This document shows, piece after piece, positions 749 to 35,997 of a stretch of 64,000 bases of DNA (positions are counted from its first letter, which is position 1; every line of letters starts with the position of its first letter). The translations under genes and the position numbers were made by a program. Origin of the DNA: a virus; the IMG/VR virus record IMGVR_UViG_3300032087_002755. One strand, 5' to 3'. The notes beneath the pieces are model-generated. The model was not told the DNA's origin, ran no database searches, and saw nothing but the letters and a program-made list of their open reading frames with translations.

Positions 749-3265
749 ATGGATTTCTATACTAACGTTTGCAGAACACGTGACAAAATACTTGTCAAAG
801 GCTACAAGAACGGGAAACAACAAAAACTAACAGTTTCCTACAGACCCAATCATTACATTCCTTCAAAGAAAGGAGACACCCCATTCAAATCATTAGACGG
901 AAGGTCACTGGAAGCAGTGAACCTAAACTCTATGGGTGGTGCAAGAAAGTTCAGAGAACAATACAATGGTGTAGACGGATTCGAAATCCATGGATACGAC
1001 AGATATATCTACACTTATATTGCAGATAAATTTCAAGGTGACATAGAGTTTGACTTAAAACATATAAAGATTGCAACACTTGATATTGAGTGTGAGTGTG
1101 AAGACGGATTTCCCGAACCAACTCTTGCAACTGAAAAGGTCAATGCAATCTCACTAAAACCACTTGGTAAAGATACACATGTTTTTGGTCTTGGGCCTTG
1201 GGAACACAACAGAACAGACGTAGTATATCATAACTGTAATAGTGAGGTTGACCTCTTAACTCAGTTTATCAAATACTGGAGACAAGAATCTTTTGATATC
1301 ATTACAGGTTGGAATGTAAACTCATTCGATATTACATATCTTTGTAATCGTATTGACAGAATACTAGGAGAGGGAGAACACAAGAAGCTTTCACCATGGA
1401 ATCAATGTGACGTGAGAGAATTCATGTCTAACTATGGTCAAAGACAAATGATATTTAATTTATATGGTGTCAACGTTCTTGACTATCTTGAACTCTATCG
1501 TAAACATACATTCGTAAATCAAGAATCCTACAAACTAGAAAACATTGCACAAGTAGAACTTGGAACAGGTAAACTAGATTACTCAGAGTATGGAAATCTA
1601 CATACACTCTACAAACAGGACTATGCAAAATTCTTAGAATATAATGTCAAAGACGTTGTCCTTGTTGAACAACTAGAAGAAAAACTTGGTCTGATTGAAT
1701 TGACTTGTGCAATGTCATACAATGCAAAGTGTAATTACAACGACACTTTCGGAATGGTGAAGTATTGGGAAACTATTATTTACAACTTCCTTAAAGAACA
1801 AAACATACAAACACCACCCCAAAGATTAAAGAGTGGTAATGATAAAACACACCAAATTATTGGTGCATATGTTAAAGACCCAATTGTCGGTGGACATGAC
1901 TGGGTTGTCTCTTTTGACTTGAACTCACTGTATCCACATATCATTATGCAATACAATATCTCACCCGAGAAAATGATAAAGGGAAACAGACAAGACTTGA
2001 CCATTGACAGAATGTTAAACAAAGAATGTGATTTATCTTATGTCTATCAACAAGGTCATGCAGTATGTCCAAACGGTGTAATGTATTCTAAAAACAAACA
2101 GGGATTTCTTCCCGAACTCATGGAAAAATTCTATGACGAAAGAAAAGAGTGGAAGAAGAAAATGATTGGTTATCAGAAAGAACGAGAAGTCTGTAAAGAA
2201 CCCAAACGTAAGAAAGAACTTGATACACTTATTAAACGTGCATATAACAATCAACAGGTTCGTAAGATTGCACTGAACTCTGCATATGGAGCTCTTGCAA
2301 ATCAATACTTTGCATTCTTTTCTATTGACCTTGCAGAATCAATTACTACCAGTGGTCAGTTAATTATCAAATGGGCAGAGAAGACCATTAACGAATTCTT
2401 AAACAAGACACTTAATACAGAAGGTGAAGACTATGTGATTGCAATGGATACTGATTCAGTTTATATCACTATGGATAAACTGGTTAAACAAGTGTTACCC
2501 GAAGAAACAGACAAGACTAAGATTGTAGATTTCCTAAACAAATCAGAGGGAATGATTGAACAAGTTCTTGCACGTGGTTTTGACGACCTTGCAGAATACA
2601 CCAATGCATTCCAACAGAAAATGCAAATGGGACGTGAGGTAATTGCAGACAGAGGTATTTGGACTGCAAAGAAAAGATACATTCTCAATGTTCACGATAA
2701 CGAAGGTGTCAGACTTGCAGAACCTAAACTTAAAATGATGGGTATTGAGACTGCAAAGTCTTCTACACCTCAATGGGTCAGAACCAAACTAACAGAAGCC
2801 TTAAAGGTGGTTATGAATGGAACTGAACAAGACCTATGGGAGTTCGTAGAGACTGCACGAAAAGAATTTAGAAACCTTCCACCCGAAGAAGTTGCATTCC
2901 CAAGAGGTGTTAAAAACCTCGTAACCTATTCAGACCCAGCTCATATTTACGGAAAGGGTACACCAATTCATGTTCGAGGTTCACTTCTACACAATCATTT
3001 ACTGAAATCCAAGAACCTCAACATGAGATATGAAATGATTAAGAACTCAGACAAGATTCGTTTTGCATATCTCACAACCCCAAATCCAATCAATGAAAAT
3101 GTAATTGCATTCTCAAGTTCTTTACCAAGAGAGTTAGACTTACATAGATTCATTGATTATGATATGCAGTTTGATAAAGCATTTAATGAACCATTAAAGA
3201 ATATTGTTAATCTAATCAACTGGAATGTAGAACCAGTTGCAAGTTTAGATTCGTTCTTTGGTTAG
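749..3265 (+). CDS. gp43: family B DNA polymerase
   Basis: Exo motifs DIECE and GWNxxxFDITY; pol motifs SFDLNSLYP, KIALNSAYG, MDTDS, KKRY; C-terminal clamp-binding SLDSFF. Confidence 0.98.
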   Translation: MDFYTNVCRTRDKILVKGYKNGKQQKLTVSYRPNHYIPSKKGDTPFKSLDGRSLEAVNLNSMGGARKFREQYNGVDGFEIHGYDRYIYTYIADKFQGDIEFDLKHIKIATLDIECECEDGFPEPTLATEKVNAISLKPLGKDTHVFGLGPWEHNRTDVVYHNCNSEVDLLTQFIKYWRQESFDIITGWNVNSFDITYLCNRIDRILGEGEHKKLSPWNQCDVREFMSNYGQRQMIFNLYGVNVLDYLELYRKHTFVNQESYKLENIAQVELGTGKLDYSEYGNLHTLYKQDYAKFLEYNVKDVVLVEQLEEKLGLIELTCAMSYNAKCNYNDTFGMVKYWETIIYNFLKEQNIQTPPQRLKSGNDKTHQIIGAYVKDPIVGGHDWVVSFDLNSLYPHIIMQYNISPEKMIKGNRQDLTIDRMLNKECDLSYVYQQGHAVCPNGVMYSKNKQGFLPELMEKFYDERKEWKKKMIGYQKEREVCKEPKRKKELDTLIKRAYNNQQVRKIALNSAYGALANQYFAFFSIDLAESITTSGQLIIKWAEKTINEFLNKTLNTEGEDYVIAMDTDSVYITMDKLVKQVLPEETDKTKIVDFLNKSEGMIEQVLARGFDDLAEYTNAFQQKMQMGREVIADRGIWTAKKRYILNVHDNEGVRLAEPKLKMMGIETAKSSTPQWVRTKLTEALKVVMNGTEQDLWEFVETARKEFRNLPPEEVAFPRGVKNLVTYSDPAHIYGKGTPIHVRGSLLHNHLLKSKNLNMRYEMIKNSDKIRFAYLTTPNPINENVIAFSSSLPRELDLHRFIDYDMQFDKAFNEPLKNIVNLINWNVEPVASLDSFFG

Positions 3266-3273
3266 GAGACACT

Positions 3274-3447
3274 ATGAAACACATGATACGTTGGATGAAG
3301 ATTAATGCATTTATTAATCTATATCTTGGAATAATTTTAACATTCGTTTTGATTGCACTGGTAGTGGATATTACACTGGACAGTTATTGGCATTCAAACG
3401 ACTTCAAAGATTTACTTTTAGGTAAAGATGTGGCACCTACTGATTAG
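3274..3447 (+). CDS. small membrane protein (57 aa, below ORF-track cutoff)
   Basis: SD AGGAG, ATG 3274; hydrophobic stretch FINLYLGIILTFVLIALVV. Confidence 0.6.
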   Translation: MKHMIRWMKINAFINLYLGIILTFVLIALVVDITLDSYWHSNDFKDLLLGKDVAPTD

Positions 3448-3670
3448 TATAAAGTTTTATGTGTATAGTGTATCGACTGCACATACACTGATAATGTTTT
3501 ATATGTTCCCAATTATACCAATTGCAATAGGTTATATACTTCTTGCAGCTGCAATAGGTGGTTTTGGTTTGTATATTGCATATGATTACGATAGAACATT
3601 CACTCAATACAAGAAAACTCAAAACCCGATGGATTGGGACTTGTTTGACACTAAATACCATAGGAGTTAG
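3428..3670 (+). CDS. small membrane protein
   Basis: Two hydrophobic segments; overlaps previous ORF. Confidence 0.55.
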   Translation: MWHLLISIKFYVYSVSTAHTLIMFYMFPIIPIAIGYILLAAAIGGFGLYIAYDYDRTFTQYKKTQNPMDWDLFDTKYHRS

Positions 3671-3717: not shown

Positions 3718-3993
3718 ATGAAAATAGCATATATTGCTATTTTTGTGGGTATATTACTTCCTTCTTGTGCCTCAGTTGGAGCAGTTATTGAAGGTGGTAA
3801 AGAGTTTACAACTGGTGTTGTCGATGGTGCAGTTCAAGGAACTCAAACATTGGTAAATGCAGTTGCAGATGATGTAGTCTCAGTTGGAACTTTAGCAGCT
3901 AATACTGCAACAGGTGTTGTTAACACTGTAGCAGACGAAGTTGATAGACAGACAGATGAACTACAAGAGGAAGAGAAAACTGAAAAAAAGTAG
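3718..3993 (+). CDS. lipoprotein (short isoform; see frameshift finding)
   Basis: SD GGAG; signal peptide ending LLPS-C lipobox; amphipathic Val/Ala/Gly-rich body; acidic tail. Confidence 0.8.
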   Translation: MKIAYIAIFVGILLPSCASVGAVIEGGKEFTTGVVDGAVQGTQTLVNAVADDVVSVGTLAANTATGVVNTVADEVDRQTDELQEEEKTEKK

Positions 3994-4085
3994 AGGAGGT
4001 CATTCCGACAGTTGTATTACTGGAGGCTATGATGCTCTATTGTTCAGAGTTCCCACAAAAATGTAGAACTAGAAGAGGGAACTAG
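3984..4085 (+). other. putative -1 programmed ribosomal frameshift site and -1 frame extension
   Basis: In-frame A_AAA_AAG (3984-3990) directly before TAG; AGAGGA 12 nt upstream; hairpin 3996-4037; -1 frame open to 4085. Confidence 0.65.
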
Positions 4086-4101
4086 TAGTTCCCTCTTTTT
4101 T
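4073..4101 (+). terminator. Rho-independent terminator
   Basis: AAGAGGGAACT-AGT-AGTTCCCTCTT followed by T-run. Confidence 0.85.
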
Positions 4102-4120
4102 ATTAACATAAATAAATATA

Positions 4121-4540
4121 ATGGCATATAGTAAACAAGTAGTAGATAGATTCGAAGAGGTTTTAAATAACCCCGAGAAACATGCAGTCGGAAGATTTGA
4201 CCCTAAAGACCCAATGGTCGCAACGGGTATGACTGGAGCTCCTGCTTGTGGTGATGTCATGAAACTTCAATTGAAGTTAGACATGGACGAGAGAATCGTT
4301 GATGTTAAATTTAAAACATATGGTTGTGGAAGTGCTATTGCAAGTTCTTCTTTGTTTGTTGACATGCTTACAGGTAAAACTATCGAAGAAGCAAAACTAG
4401 TTAAAGATAAAGACATTGCAGAAGCATTAGAACTACCACCAATCAAATTACATTGTTCTGTTCTTGCAGAAGACAGTATAAGAAAAGCAATAGAAAACTG
4501 GGAAGAAAAATCTTCTCATAGGAAACATAATTATGTATGA
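4121..4540 (+). CDS. iscU: Fe-S cluster scaffold IscU/NifU
   Basis: GAPACGDVMKLQ, FKTYGCGSAIASSS, LELPPIKLHCSVLAEDSI; all three Cys ligands present. Confidence 0.95.
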   Translation: MAYSKQVVDRFEEVLNNPEKHAVGRFDPKDPMVATGMTGAPACGDVMKLQLKLDMDERIVDVKFKTYGCGSAIASSSLFVDMLTGKTIEEAKLVKDKDIAEALELPPIKLHCSVLAEDSIRKAIENWEEKSSHRKHNYV

Positions 4541-4994
4541 GTATAAAGTAACAGTAGTCAAAGTCGTAGATGGAGACACTATTGATGTGGATATCGATTT
4601 AGGTTTTGGTATGGTTTACAAAAAACAAAGAGTTAGAATGTTGGGTATTGACACGCCAGAATCTAGAACTAGAGATAAAGTCGAAAAATTATTTGGTAAA
4701 GCAAGTAAGAAACACCTTAAAAAATTACTAGAGGAGTGTGAAAGTGTATCACTTGTATCACACGACAAAGGTAAATTTGGTAGAATCCTTGGTGAGTTAT
4801 TTACACACCACGTAGAAGGTCACCCAGTATTTGGTCATAAAGTTAATATCAACAAACAAATGATATTAGATTCACATGCAGTTCCTTACACTGGAGACAG
4901 TAAAGACCTAATTGAAGAACAACACTTGGATAACAGACAAAGAGTTATGCACCAAGGTTATGTAACACAAGAGGATATAGATAAAGTATCATGA
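4533..4994 (+). CDS. thermonuclease (SNase) family protein
   Basis: VVDGDTIDV, RVRMLGIDTPESR, GKFGRILG. Confidence 0.9.
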   Translation: MYEYKVTVVKVVDGDTIDVDIDLGFGMVYKKQRVRMLGIDTPESRTRDKVEKLFGKASKKHLKKLLEECESVSLVSHDKGKFGRILGELFTHHVEGHPVFGHKVNINKQMILDSHAVPYTGDSKDLIEEQHLDNRQRVMHQGYVTQEDIDKVS

Positions 4995-32790: not shown

Positions 32791-32866
32791 GGGGCATTAG
32801 TTCAGTTGGGAGAACGCCTGCTTTGCAAGCAGGAGGTCATCAGTTCGATTCTGATATGCTCCACCA
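32791..32866 (+). tRNA. tRNA-Ala(TGC)
   Basis: Acceptor GGGGCAT/ATGCTCC with G3:U70; anticodon arm CCTGC-TTTGCAA-GCAGG; T-loop TTCGATT; encoded CCA. Confidence 0.95.
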
Positions 32867-32904: not shown

Positions 32905-33522
32905 ATGAAATACTATTATACATATCGAGTTTTATTTAATAATGGTGACTATTACTTAGGCCAACACATTACTGATAATTTAGAAGATGGTTATACAGGT
33001 AGTGGAAAGAAACTCAATGAGAGAACAGACCCTTTCACATTTGATATACTAGAATACTACAATTCAGCAAAAGAATTAAACATTGCAGAGGCTGAGTTGA
33101 TTGGTGATTTATGGTATACAGACCCCAAGTGTCTCAATATGAAAGAAGGTGGTGTTGGTGGTTGGACTGCAGTTAATAAGACTTTAGATAGGTCTTATAT
33201 GTTGACTGAAGAGTATCGTGAGAAAAGGAGACAAATTGCAGAAAGATTACATAAGGAAGGTAAAATCAAGTCATTCACAAAAGAAGCATCTCTTAAAGGA
33301 CTTCTTAGAACGAGAGAACTATATCCACAAGGAACATTCCTAGGTAAGACACATACTGAAGAGACTAAGAAGAAGATTGGTCTGAATAGTGCAAAACACA
33401 TGAAAGGTGAAGGCAATCCACAATATGGTAAAATGTGGATAACCAATGAACAGGAATCTACAAGAATCAATAAGGGTGAATCTATACCCGAAGGTTGGAG
33501 AAAAGGACGAGTTATCATATAG
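32905..33522 (+). CDS. free-standing GIY-YIG/Seg-like homing endonuclease with NUMOD3-like repeat
   Basis: YYTY...YYLGQH...GYTGSG, NMKEGG, GKTHTEETKKKI, GNPQYGKMWITN, PEGWRKGR. Confidence 0.85.
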   Translation: MKYYYTYRVLFNNGDYYLGQHITDNLEDGYTGSGKKLNERTDPFTFDILEYYNSAKELNIAEAELIGDLWYTDPKCLNMKEGGVGGWTAVNKTLDRSYMLTEEYREKRRQIAERLHKEGKIKSFTKEASLKGLLRTRELYPQGTFLGKTHTEETKKKIGLNSAKHMKGEGNPQYGKMWITNEQESTRINKGESIPEGWRKGRVII

Positions 33523-33611
33523 GTGGGGTGGCAGAGTGGTTGAATGCACTGGTCTTGAAAACCAGCAAACTCGAAAGGGTTTCGTGGGTTCAAATCCCAC
33601 CCCCACCGCCA
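33522..33611 (+). tRNA. tRNA-Ser(TGA)
   Basis: Acceptor GGTGGGG/CCCCACC, G73, CCA; anticodon arm CTGGT-CTTGAAA-ACCAG; long variable arm; T-loop TTCAAAT. Confidence 0.95.
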
Positions 33612-35922: not shown

Positions 35923-35997
35923 GGTCTGTTAGTATATCGGTGAGTATGCCTCCCTGTCACGGAGGAGAGAGGGGTTCGATTCCCCTACAGACCGCCA
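35923..35997 (+). tRNA. tRNA-Asp(GTC)
   Basis: Acceptor GGTCTGT/ACAGACC, G73, CCA; anticodon arm CCTCC-CTGTCAC-GGAGG; T-loop TTCGATT. Confidence 0.95.

What the first reader, a model, noticed from the sequence alone, without database searches (positions are those of the whole stretch)
3718..4101. Complete -1 programmed frameshift signal giving a second, Cys-tailed isoform of a phage lipoprotein
Seen: the lipoprotein ends ...GAA AAA AAG TAG, so an in-frame A_AAA_AAG heptamer (3984-3990) abuts the stop. An SD-like AGAGGA lies 12 nt upstream (3966-3971). A stem-loop starts 5 nt downstream (GAG/CTC, GTCAT/ATGAT, inner TCC/GGA or CAGT/ACTG; 3996-4037). The -1 frame has no SD-led start near its 5' end, yet reads VEEVIPTVVLLEAMMLYCSEFPQKCRTRRGN and stops at 4085, inside the terminator hairpin. 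Established: A_AAA_AAG plus an internal SD 10-14 nt upstream plus a downstream hairpin is the E. coli dnaX/IS-type -1 frameshift architecture; phage frameshifts are best known in tail-chaperone and capsid genes. Inference: two lipoprotein isoforms made at a fixed ratio, the longer with a hydrophobic helix and a Cys pair. With the two small membrane proteins upstream (3274-3670) this may be an undescribed envelope module (receptor blocking/superinfection exclusion or lysis accessory).
Basis: partly seen in the sequence, partly recalled or inferred. Interest (0 to 1): 0.82.

Follow-up and report, generated by a model that had tools for sequence, protein, structure and literature searches.

The report
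Conserved -1 frameshift in phage lipoprotein
A small lipoprotein gene of uncultured marine T4-like phages ends in a textbook ribosome slip site that almost certainly yields a short protein and a 31-residue-longer one with a disulfide-loop tail; the mechanism is known, but its use in this gene family is unreported.

Summary
The lipoprotein ORF (3718-3993) ends GAA AAA AAG TAG, with A_AAA_AAG in frame at 3984-3990. A hairpin follows, and the -1 frame is open for 31 codons to TAG 4083-4085.

Comparative evidence for programmed -1 frameshifting is strong. Among 92 distinct homologous gene ends:
- 52 have an in-frame slippery heptamer (A_AAA_AAG or G_GGA_AAG) and an open -1 frame that reaches a conserved C-terminal module, [Y/F]Cx2-3Px2C.
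- 36 have neither heptamer nor module.
- None has a heptamer without the module.

Extension lengths vary from 33 to about 60 residues, yet the -1 register is kept. Substitutions are mostly synonymous in the -1 frame only. Some clades have no start codon anywhere in the extension. One contig has the two frames fused by a 29-nt deletion. Hairpins start 6-8 nt after the heptamer with different stem sequences.

The upstream SD-like element is not conserved (8 of 26). The tail is amphipathic, not a membrane helix.

In other phages the gene sits inside a curlin-like/FecR/CHASE2-cyclase operon, and a 57-residue membrane protein travels with it. The protein's function is unknown.

No Pfam, PHROG, GenBank-phage or literature match was found. 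The scan reached the same reading earlier on another genome (e1-5799660). I class it as a new member of a known kind.

The parts
3274..3447 (+). 57-aa single-pass membrane protein ('tm57'), co-conserved upstream partner of the lipoprotein gene
   Evidence: ORF list. tblastn finds it 56-100% identical about 720 nt upstream of the lipoprotein stop throughout the window clade. It is also upstream in the distant clades L075, L141, L144 and L154. No Pfam or PHROG match.
3428..3670 (+). 80-aa membrane protein between tm57 and the lipoprotein gene; poorly conserved
   Evidence: ORF list. It is 36-95% identical within the window clade. A 92-113 aa membrane protein holds the same position in L075, L141, L144 and L154.
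3718..3993 (+). Lipoprotein gene, 0 frame (91-aa precursor, the short isoform). Signal peptide plus lipobox LPSC, with the lipidated Cys17 at 3766-3768. The mature part has an 11/3 amphipathic-helix periodicity.
   Evidence: The Cys and the following A-S-V-G are invariant in alignments of 21 sequences; Cys, Ala, Val and Gly stay invariant and Ser nearly so among 38. Hydrophobic periodicity peaks at 3.67 residues (power 98.5, against 53.8 at 3.6). Clade-specific indels are exactly 11 residues. AF2 predicts helices at low confidence.
3984..3990 (+). Slippery heptamer A_AAA_AAG in the 0-frame register X_XXY_YYZ
   Evidence: It is conserved in frame, 0 or 3 nt before the 0-frame stop, or replaced by G_GGA_AAG, in 52 of 92 distinct homologous gene ends. 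It is never present without the -1 frame module.
3991..3993 (+). 0-frame stop TAG directly after the heptamer; it ends the short isoform
   Evidence: the stop is always 0 or 1 codon after the heptamer.
3991..4039 (+). Stem-loop 3' of the slip site. The core stem 3999-4003/4029-4033 (GUCAU/AUGAU) lies 8 nt after the heptamer. The inner stems are CC/GG and CAGU/ACUG.
   Evidence: MFE -16.7 kcal/mol, z -2.6. The core stem is kept in 10 of 10 clade members, and 2 inner pairs change on both sides. Other clades have hairpins of different sequence starting 6-7 nt after the heptamer, z down to -4.3. In the PKKD clade, 4 of 11 pairs show compensatory changes.
3990..4085 (+). -1 frame extension of 31 codons plus TAG 4083-4085. 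It is joined to the lipoprotein only by frameshifting (long isoform, about 122-aa precursor).
   Evidence: The -1 frame is closed by TGA 3981-3983 just 5' of the heptamer. Variable sites by -1 frame codon position are 7:2:18. The synonymous fraction is 0.64, against 0.08 and 0.10 in the other frames.
4038..4064 (+). Conserved C-terminal motif Y-C-S-E-F-P-Q-K-C (Cys codons at 4041-4043 and 4062-4064), preceded by an amphipathic helix
   Evidence: C, P and C are invariant and Y nearly invariant in the alignment of 17 extensions from distinct clades. The helix has pLDDT 69-77 in the natural fused homologue. The same motif occurs in tandem in secreted bacterial proteins P0110 and P0113.
4071..4101 (+). 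Intrinsic terminator hairpin plus T-run that closes the unit; the -1 frame stop lies in its loop
   Evidence: -17.7 kcal/mol, z -4.5, no shuffle as good. A hairpin plus T-run is present at this position in the related loci.

Best explanation
The lipoprotein mRNA is decoded in two ways.

Most ribosomes read GAA AAA AAG and stop at TAG 3991-3993. This gives a 91-aa precursor. After signal-peptidase II processing at Cys17 it becomes a lipid-anchored, roughly 75-residue amphipathic-helix protein in the host envelope.

A fixed fraction of ribosomes pause over the hairpin that starts 8 nt downstream. Both Lys-tRNAs slip back one base on A_AAA_AAG, and translation continues in the -1 frame for 31 more codons. 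The resulting long isoform has the same lipid anchor and body, plus a C-terminal amphipathic helix and a C-x6-C loop. Because it is exported with the lipoprotein, the loop can form a disulfide in the periplasm.

What is shown by comparative sequence analysis:
- the slip site;
- the hairpin;
- a -1 frame that is protein-coding, has no start of its own and is attached to the lipoprotein;
- strict co-occurrence of heptamer and extension.

What is inferred:
- that the shift happens on the ribosome, and at what rate;
- the disulfide;
- the envelope location;
- the role. My best guess, from gene neighbourhood only, is a two-form envelope component working with the co-conserved 57-aa membrane protein and, in many phages, with the curlin-like/FecR/CHASE2-cyclase operon.
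For: 1. The heptamer is in register and abuts the stop. The -1 frame is closed by TGA right before it.
2. Of 92 distinct homologous gene ends, 52 have heptamer plus module in an open -1 frame, 36 have neither, and 0 have a heptamer without the module.
3. Two different canonical heptamers are used, A_AAA_AAG and G_GGA_AAG. They interchange at least 5 times on the family tree, at least 2 of them forced by well-supported branches. Both are among the most shift-prone in E. coli (PMC5009743).
4. Extension lengths of 33, 34, 36, 39, 40, 44, 45, 51, 52 and 55-61 aa all keep the -1 register.
5. There is a coding signature in the -1 frame only.
6. Clades L118/L119 have no ATG, GTG or TTG anywhere in the extension. 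L154/L156 have none until 3 codons before the motif, and L055 and L151 none until 2 codons before it.
7. Contig L070 (protein P0097) has the two frames fused in frame by a 29-nt deletion that removes the slip site and the hairpin's 5' arm.
8. Hairpins begin 6-8 nt after the heptamer and have different, partly covarying stems.
9. The module has no signal peptide of its own. Its bacterial relatives P0110 and P0113 are secreted proteins.
Against: - There is no experimental or proteomic evidence, and the efficiency is unknown.
- In the window's own clade the hairpin is modest (consensus -5 kcal/mol; z -2.6).
- GGAGG lies 2 and 5 nt before ATG ATG (4029-4034), so a separate 17-18 aa peptide cannot be excluded for this clade alone.
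- Clade L163/L168 has G_GAA_AAG with a TAATG stop-start overlap.
- Contigs L223 and L224 carry the module in the +1 frame with no canonical slip site. A -1 shift is therefore not the only arrangement in the family.
- The fused contig L070 is a single 1.3x-coverage assembly.
- The host, and hence its Lys-tRNA set, is unknown.
Confidence: 0.88

Rival explanations
1. The downstream reading frame is a separate micro-gene. It would be translated from its own start (ATG ATG at 4029-4034) or by termination-reinitiation after the lipoprotein stop, giving a free 17-18 aa Cys-pair peptide.
For: In the window clade GGAGG (4022-4026) lies 2 and 5 nt upstream of the two ATGs. In clade L163/L168 an ATG overlaps the stop as TAATG. 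Gene callers have called such small ORFs (P0115, P0116, P0118).
Against: - The 13-39 codons between the heptamer and any ATG are open in the -1 frame in every heptamer-bearing lineage, and they evolve as coding sequence.
- L118/L119 have no start codon in the extension. L154/L156, L055 and L151 have one only 2-3 codons before the motif.
- SD-like cores precede the first ATG in only some clades.
- The ATG ATG of the window is base-paired in the hairpin.
- A free peptide has no signal peptide, whereas the motif occurs in secreted proteins.
- The -1 register would not need to be conserved under this model.
Confidence: 0.05
2. The long form arises from transcriptional slippage. RNA polymerase would add or drop an A in the A-run, so a fraction of mRNAs encode the fusion in one frame.
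For: The window has a run of seven A (3983-3989). Transcriptional slippage on A/T runs is used by some bacterial and IS genes (reviewed in PMC5009743).
Against: - Known productive slippage uses runs of about 9 or more.
- The PKKD clades have only six A, and the G_GGA_AAG clades have three G plus three A, yet they keep the same architecture.
- The conserved 3' hairpin at 6-8 nt and the strict X_XXY_YYZ register fit ribosomal slippage.
Confidence: 0.04
3. This is a sequencing or assembly error in a homopolymer, so the gene is really one continuous ORF. Alternatively, the -1 frame is open by chance and means nothing.
For: A-runs are error-prone. One long-read contig (L158, protein P0114) does show an apparent in-frame fusion, but its lipoprotein gene is riddled with other frame errors.
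Against: The same heptamer plus stop is found in well over 100 independent contigs from many metagenomes, in clades 50-100% identical, including the non-homopolymer G_GGA_AAG. The chance of open frames across 9 lineages is about 6e-10. The coding signature is in the -1 frame only.
Confidence: 0.01

Closest known systems
E. coli dnaX tau/gamma -1 programmed frameshift
   Same: It uses the same heptamer A_AAA_AAG, read by tandem Lys-tRNA slippage, with a 3' stem-loop a few nucleotides downstream. One gene gives two products that share the N-terminal body at a ratio set by translation.
   Different: - In dnaX the shifted frame stops almost at once, so the frameshift product is the shorter one. 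Here the unshifted frame stops at once and the shift adds a 31-60 residue functional module.
- The dnaX upstream SD-like stimulator is not a conserved feature here (8 of 26).
- The gene family is unrelated.
Phage tail assembly chaperone G/GT frameshift (lambda G_GGA_AAG; conserved in dsDNA tailed phages)
   Same: A phage gene carries a slippery heptamer near its 3' end, and some clades here use the very same G_GGA_AAG. The shift extends the protein into an overlapping -1 frame ORF, so a short and a long form are made from one mRNA.
   Different: This is not a tail gene. It lies between gp43 and uvsX here, and inside a curlin-like/CHASE2 operon elsewhere. It encodes a secreted lipoprotein with no PHROG or Pfam match. 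The extension is a short disulfide-loop module.
IS3-family / IS911 / IS1222 orfA-orfB frameshifts and B. subtilis cdd (A_AAA_AAG, x_xGA_AAG, A_AAG sites)
   Same: These use shift sites ending in A_AAG followed by a hairpin or pseudoknot. The variant G_GAA_AAG of clade L163/L168 resembles the non-canonical x_CGA_AAG sites listed in PMC5009743.
   Different: Those are transposases or a metabolic enzyme. There is no sequence or functional relation.
Small phage lipoproteins of known role (T5 Llp, Cor of phi80/N15, o-spanins such as Rz1)
   Same: They are small, phage-encoded, SPII-type lipoproteins acting in the host envelope.
   Different: There is no sequence similarity (no PHROG hit). There is no adjacent i-spanin or lysis cassette. 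None of those is known to be made in two forms by frameshifting. The body here is an 11/3-periodic amphipathic helix.
CP12 C-terminal disulfide loop (Y-C-x-x-N-P-x3-E-C)
   Same: The resemblance is at motif level only: an aromatic residue, Cys, Asn-Pro and an acidic residue before the second Cys at the very C-terminus. This is recalled from memory.
   Different: The loop here is two residues shorter and sits in an exported protein. The Pfam CP12 model is far below threshold (E 0.16 on bacterial protein P0110 only; none on the phage extensions). It is not a member.

Membership tests
-1 programmed ribosomal frameshift site (tandem-slippage type) | X_XXY_YYZ heptamer in the 0-frame register | tested here: met
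   A_AAA_AAG at 3984-3990. A_AAA_AAG or G_GGA_AAG is in register in 52 distinct homologous gene ends.
-1 programmed ribosomal frameshift site (tandem-slippage type) | Stimulatory RNA structure about 5-9 nt 3' of the heptamer | tested here: met
   In the window the core stem lies 8 nt downstream, MFE -16.7 kcal/mol, z -2.6. Other clades have hairpins 6-7 nt downstream with different stems, z down to -4.3. Compensatory changes are seen. It is weakest in the L045 clade.
-1 programmed ribosomal frameshift site (tandem-slippage type) | The -1 frame ORF is conserved, protein-coding, and lacks its own initiation site | tested here: met
   There is a stop immediately 5' of the heptamer in the -1 frame. 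The synonymous bias is in the -1 frame only. Some clades have no start codon in the extension.
-1 programmed ribosomal frameshift site (tandem-slippage type) | The transframe protein is actually produced at a reproducible ratio | not testable with these tools
   This needs a reporter assay, a western blot or mass spectrometry.
dnaX-type three-part signal | Internal Shine-Dalgarno-like element 10-14 nt 5' of the heptamer | tested here: inconclusive
   AGAGGA lies 12 nt upstream in the window. A 4-nt SD-like core in that zone is present in only 8 of 26 distinct upstream sequences, and it arises from Glu codons. It is not a conserved element.
Bacterial SPII lipoprotein | N-terminal signal peptide ending in a lipobox with an invariant Cys | tested here: met
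   M-K, then a hydrophobic core, then L-P-S-C. The Cys is invariant in 38 aligned homologues, and the -3 to -1 positions fit the [LVIF]-x-[SG]-C pattern. Lipidation itself was not tested.
Phage tail chaperone G/GT frameshift family | Gene pair located between the major tail and tape-measure genes; chaperone fold | tested here: not met
   The gene lies between the DNA polymerase and the NifU/SNase/UvsX genes, or in the curlin-like/CHASE2 operon. No PHROG match.
Spanin (o-spanin or u-spanin) | Lipoprotein paired with, or embedded in, an i-spanin gene within a lysis cassette; or a C-terminal membrane span (u-spanin) | tested here: not met
   There is no spanin PHROG hit and no i-spanin-like neighbour. 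The extension is amphipathic and charged, with no membrane span.

The most novel reading that the evidence does not exclude
The frameshift may set the stoichiometry of two forms of an envelope lipoprotein that belongs to the curli-like (CsgF/CsgG, curlin-like, FecR-like, CHASE2-cyclase) system of marine T4-like phages. Under this reading the short form coats or tethers the membrane through its 11/3 amphipathic helix. The minority long form would present a disulfide-loop docking module to another component. The secreted proteins of that operon also carry Cys pairs near their C-termini. The family would then also show evolutionary turnover of recoding: swaps between two heptamers, one large loss, a natural fusion and a +1-frame variant. 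That would make it a natural series for studying how recoding signals are gained and lost.
Probability: 0.2. Interest if true: 0.75.

Novelty: new member of a known kind. Interest (0 to 1): 0.6.

Why it matters
Well-supported cases of productive -1 frameshifting in bacteria and their phages are few: dnaX, IS elements, tail chaperones, some capsid genes, copA and cdd. This adds a new gene family, an exported lipoprotein, that is widespread in abundant, uncultured marine myoviruses. At least 251 IMG/VR contigs and more than 100 protein clusters carry the family.

The comparative support is unusually clean. Two interchangeable heptamers are used, heptamer and extension co-occur strictly, and a natural in-frame fusion exists.

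For annotation, the 31-60 residue module is currently missed or called as an orphan micro-ORF.

For biology, it flags an unstudied envelope component. That component is genetically linked to the puzzling curli-like operon of pelagic myophages. The finding also gives simple constructs for asking what the component does: short-only, long-only and wild type.

Tried and rejected
- **Family searches found nothing above threshold.** Pfam, PHROGs and a Pfam scan of the 17 extension peptides gave no hit.
- **No cultured or cellular relatives found.** tblastn of the lipoprotein against 50,697 GenBank phage records gave no match. A pattern scan of GTDB species genomes found no relative. No cultured phage or cellular copy is therefore known from these searches.
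- **Nearest cultured phages are distant.** gp43 is only 49% identical to cyanomyophage polymerases.
- **Rfam gave nothing near a gathering score** on 3900-4150.
- **The protein atlas gave viral hypotheticals only**, plus a weak Gly-zipper lead at 0.84, which I did not pursue.
- **AF2 of the natural fused homologue was poor.** Mean pLDDT was 47.7. The body is helical but unreliable, and only the C-terminal helix reaches about 70-77. I ran no fold search because the model is too poor.
- **A composite alignment failed.** MAFFT misplaced the short extension peptides when aligned with the lipoproteins.
- **A word-based search for other fused forms** with the P0097 tail found only P0097 itself.
- **P0114 is not evidence for a fusion.** Its contig (L158) is a long-read assembly with several other frame errors in the same gene.
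- **L159 (P0111) got little weight.** It appears to be a stand-alone module ORF, but it is a 542-nt, 0.86x-coverage contig.
- **The consensus terminator scanner missed the 4071-4099 hairpin**. Folding confirmed it.
- **The whole genome is not held**, so the curli/CHASE2 operon upstream of the window could be checked only in related loci.
- **Literature searches found no report** of a frameshift in a phage lipoprotein. The pelagimyophage paper that describes the curli operon mentions neither lipoprotein nor frameshift (PMC7029224).

Full report
**1. What is in the window**

The ORF at 3718-3993 (+) encodes a 91-aa protein. It has a short basic N-terminus, a hydrophobic core and the lipobox L-P-S-C, with Cys17 at 3766-3768. 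Its last codons are GAA AAA AAG TAG. The heptamer A_AAA_AAG (3984-3990) is therefore in the X_XXY_YYZ register and touches the stop.

In the -1 frame a TGA (3981-3983) lies immediately 5' of the heptamer. The -1 frame is thus open only from the slip site onward. It runs 31 codons, through Y-C-S-E-F-P-Q-K-C (4038-4064), to TAG 4083-4085. That stop lies in the loop of a strong terminator hairpin (4071-4099; -17.7 kcal/mol, z -4.5).

Bases 3991-4040 fold into a stem-loop of -16.7 kcal/mol, z -2.6. Its core stem GUCAU/AUGAU begins 8 nt after the heptamer. AGAGGA lies at 3966-3971.

**2. The replicon**

The neighbours are a T4-type DNA polymerase (749-3265), a NifU-like protein, an SNase-like nuclease, UvsX and a gp41-type helicase. 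The polymerase is at most 49% identical to those of cultured cyanomyophages. The lipoprotein has no match in 50,697 GenBank phage records or in GTDB species genomes.

It is common in uncultured marine viral contigs. There are 107 protein clusters and 251 IMG/VR contigs. The window therefore comes from an uncultured marine T4-like myovirus.

Earlier notes of this scan place a CsgF/CsgG/curlin-like/FecR/CHASE2-cyclase operon just upstream of the window in the same genome (e1-5784420). Such a curli operon was described for pelagimyophages, without mention of this gene or of any frameshift (PMC7029224).

**3. Comparative test of the frameshift**

I collected about 220 homologous loci from IMG/VR and metagenome assemblies. 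I reduced them to 92 distinct gene ends that had at least 200 nt of downstream sequence.

| Gene end | Count |
|---|---|
| In-frame canonical heptamer within 0-1 codon of the 0-frame stop, with an open -1 frame reaching the module (amphipathic helix plus [Y/F]-C-x2-3-P-x2-C) | 52 |
| Neither heptamer nor module | 36 |
| Heptamer without the module | 0 |
| Exceptions (informative; see section 6) | 4 |

Two different heptamers are used: A_AAA_AAG, followed by TAG, TAA, GAC TAA or GAC TAG, and G_GGA_AAG, followed by TAG or TAA. Both are among the most shift-prone sequences in E. coli. G_GGA_AAG is also used for tail-chaperone (g-t) frameshifting in an archaeal virus (review PMC5009743); from memory, it is the lambda G/GT site too.

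On a tree of the mature domain the two heptamer types interchange at least five times, at least two of them forced by well-supported branches. The tree has only 67 columns and is poorly resolved. The slip-site residues were left out of it.

**4. The extension is coding, and it is attached**

The extension is 33, 34, 36, 39, 40, 44, 45, 51, 52 or 55-61 residues long in different clades. Every indel has preserved the -1 register.

Between the slip site and the motif the -1 frame has no stop in any lineage. The other two frames have 0-6 stops each. The chance of an open frame is 0.03-0.37 per lineage, and the product over nine lineages is 6e-10.

Within the window's clade, variable sites fall 7:2:18 on -1 frame codon positions 1:2:3. 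Of the codon differences, 64% are synonymous in the -1 frame, against 8% and 10% in the other frames. Two other clades show the same pattern.

The stretch upstream of the first ATG shows Leu codons changing among TTA, TTG, CTT and CTG.

Start codons are scarce or absent:
- Clades L118/L119 have no ATG, GTG or TTG anywhere in the 38-codon extension.
- L154/L156 have none until 3 codons before the motif.
- L055 and L151 have none until 2 codons before the motif.

The module therefore cannot in general be made from its own start.

One contig (L070, protein P0097, 136 aa) has a 29-nt deletion relative to its sister L071. The deletion removes the 3' part of the slip site and the 5' arm of the hairpin, and it fuses lipoprotein and module in one frame. 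This is a natural 'long-only' allele, though it rests on a single 1.3x-coverage assembly.

An exhaustive profile search with the extension alignment found the same motif in tandem copies in bacterial proteins with signal peptides (P0110 and P0113, the latter in genome assemblies next to fadB/fadA-like genes). It also found orphan micro-ORF calls for the phage extensions. The module thus looks like an extracytoplasmic disulfide-loop unit. In the phages only fusion to the lipoprotein gives it a route out of the cytoplasm.

**5. Stimulatory elements**

In nearly all clades a hairpin starts 6-8 nt 3' of the heptamer, with unrelated stem sequences. Examples are GCCU..UCUCC/GGAGA..AGGC, CUUCAUC/GAUGAAG, CCUUCUUA/UAAGAAGG, CCUUUUCUC/GGGAAAAGG and CCCCU/AGGGG. 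The z-scores go down to -4.3.

In the PKKD clade RNAalifold gives 11 pairs, 4 of them with compensatory changes.

In the window's clade the GUCAU/AUGAU stem is invariant and two inner pairs covary. The consensus energy is only -5 kcal/mol, and the L045 subclade is weak.

The residues encoded by the hairpin are the least conserved part of the extension, and they are the part deleted in the fused allele. This fits an RNA-level role.

The upstream SD-like element is not conserved. Only 8 of 26 distinct upstream sequences have a 4-nt core in the right zone, and it arises from Glu codons.

No Rfam family matches.

**6. Exceptions**

- **A derived clade and L072 lack both heptamer and module.** The clade has 27 distinct proteins and acidic tails such as E-E-E-Q-E-K. 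Together with L072 this is most simply one large loss and one small loss. PRF-bearing lineages lie on both sides of the deepest, well-supported split, so the signal is probably old in the family.
- **L163/L168 have G_GAA_AAG, one G-to-A change away from the G_GGA_AAG of their sister L169.** They also have a TAATG stop-start overlap, while keeping the 6-nt spacer and a CCCCU/AGGGG hairpin. This may be a weaker A_AAG-type site, or a step towards a separate gene.
- **L223 and L224 carry an intact, conserved module in the +1 frame.** These are two independent contigs. They have no canonical slip site and no conserved start, since the GTG in one is GTA in the other. Their sisters L225-L229 have CC A_AAA_AAG TAA and the -1 frame. 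I could not explain this. It could be +1 or -2 recoding, or a recently disabled gene.
- **L158 (P0114) looks fused, but it is an error-ridden long-read assembly**.

**7. What the protein may be**

The mature body has a hydrophobic periodicity sharply peaked at 3.67 residues (11/3). Clade-specific indels are exactly 11 residues. This fits an 11-mer-repeat amphipathic helix of the kind that lies on membranes or forms hendecad coiled coils. AF2 predicts helices at low confidence (pLDDT below 50). The C-terminal helix of the module reaches 69-77. There is no known family.

The 57-aa membrane protein at 3274-3447 is co-conserved upstream of the lipoprotein in the window clade and in the distant clades L075, L141, L144 and L154.

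Outside the window clade, the gene lies between a curlin-like repeat protein with a FecR-like protein upstream and a CHASE2 class-III cyclase downstream. This holds for most heptamer-bearing loci that have enough flanking sequence. The curlin-like and FecR-like proteins of these operons also carry Cys pairs near their C-termini (compare note e1-5784421).

This points to an envelope role connected with that operon. It remains inference from neighbourhood alone.

**8. Comparison with what is known, and verdict**

Mechanistically this is a standard tandem-slippage -1 PRF. It has the dnaX and IS911 heptamer, or the lambda G/GT heptamer, plus a 3' hairpin.

It differs from dnaX in two ways. Here the shift lengthens the product, and the SD stimulator is not conserved. 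It differs from G/GT in gene, location and product.

I found no report of frameshifting in a phage lipoprotein. The scan reached the same reading earlier on a related gene of another genome (e1-5799660, and e1-5782730 at first-reader stage). My tests were run independently on this window and agree.

My confidence that a transframe lipoprotein is made by -1 ribosomal frameshifting is about 0.88. I class it as a new member of a known kind, with interest 0.6.

Noticed in passing
L223:1480-1720 and L224:460-700 (IMG/VR contigs 3300006919_007525 and 3300004369_000172): In this sub-clade the conserved C-terminal module lies in the +1 frame of the lipoprotein ORF (the ORF ends GAA GAA AAG AAG TAG). 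There is no X_XXY_YYZ heptamer and no conserved start codon. Sister contigs have the canonical -1 arrangement. This may be +1 or -2 recoding, or a freshly disabled gene.
   Followed up: partly
L070:459-569 versus L071:600-655: A natural in-frame fusion of lipoprotein and module (P0097, 136 aa) is created by a 29-nt deletion that removes the slip site's 3' part and the hairpin's 5' arm. It rests on a single contig at 1.3x coverage.
   Followed up: yes
L163:1480-1620 (also L168); sister L169: A variant site G_GAA_AAG has the stop overlapping an ATG (TAATG), followed by a 6-nt spacer and a CCCCU/AGGGG hairpin. The sister contig has the canonical G_GGA_AAG and no ATG. This may be a transitional state between frameshift and coupled separate gene.
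   Followed up: partly
P0110, P0113 (L166:4001-4411, L167:4001-4411; bacterial genome assemblies): These are secreted bacterial proteins of 136-144 aa made of 3-4 tandem copies of the same Y-C-x-x-N-P-x-x-C-E motif, separated by charged helices. They have no Pfam family. The motif is reminiscent of the CP12 C-terminal loop, but it is far below the Pfam threshold.
   Followed up: partly
window 3769-3960 (mature lipoprotein body): Hydrophobic periodicity is 3.67 residues (11/3), and clade-specific indels are exactly 11 residues. The body is an 11-mer-repeat amphipathic helix, of the kind seen in lipid-surface-binding proteins or hendecad coiled coils.
   Followed up: partly
L054, L055, L059, L060, L062, L065, L075 (about 400-3200 nt upstream and 100-2700 nt downstream of the lipoprotein stop): In these phages the lipoprotein gene sits between curlin-like/FecR-like genes and a 685-689 aa CHASE2 class-III cyclase. 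The curlin-like and FecR-like proteins each end with a Cys pair (C-x3-C or C-x5-C) followed by a short beta-strand-like S-I-T-Q tail.
   Followed up: partly
window 4121-4540 and 4533-4994: A NifU/IscU-like Fe-S scaffold gene (PF01592, E 5e-39) and a staphylococcal-nuclease-like gene (PF00565) lie directly downstream. The NifU gene is present in only some members of the window clade.
   Followed up: no
window 32791-32866, 33522-33611, 35923-35997: There are three phage tRNA genes (Ala-TGC, Ser-TGA, Asp-GTC). The window has no tRNA-Lys, so decoding of the slip site depends on the host's Lys-tRNA.
   Followed up: no
L158:1300-1760 (252-kb long-read contig): The lipoprotein gene is broken by several frame errors in a pilon-polished long-read assembly. 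Its apparent in-frame fusion (P0114) is an assembly artefact, not evidence.
   Followed up: yes
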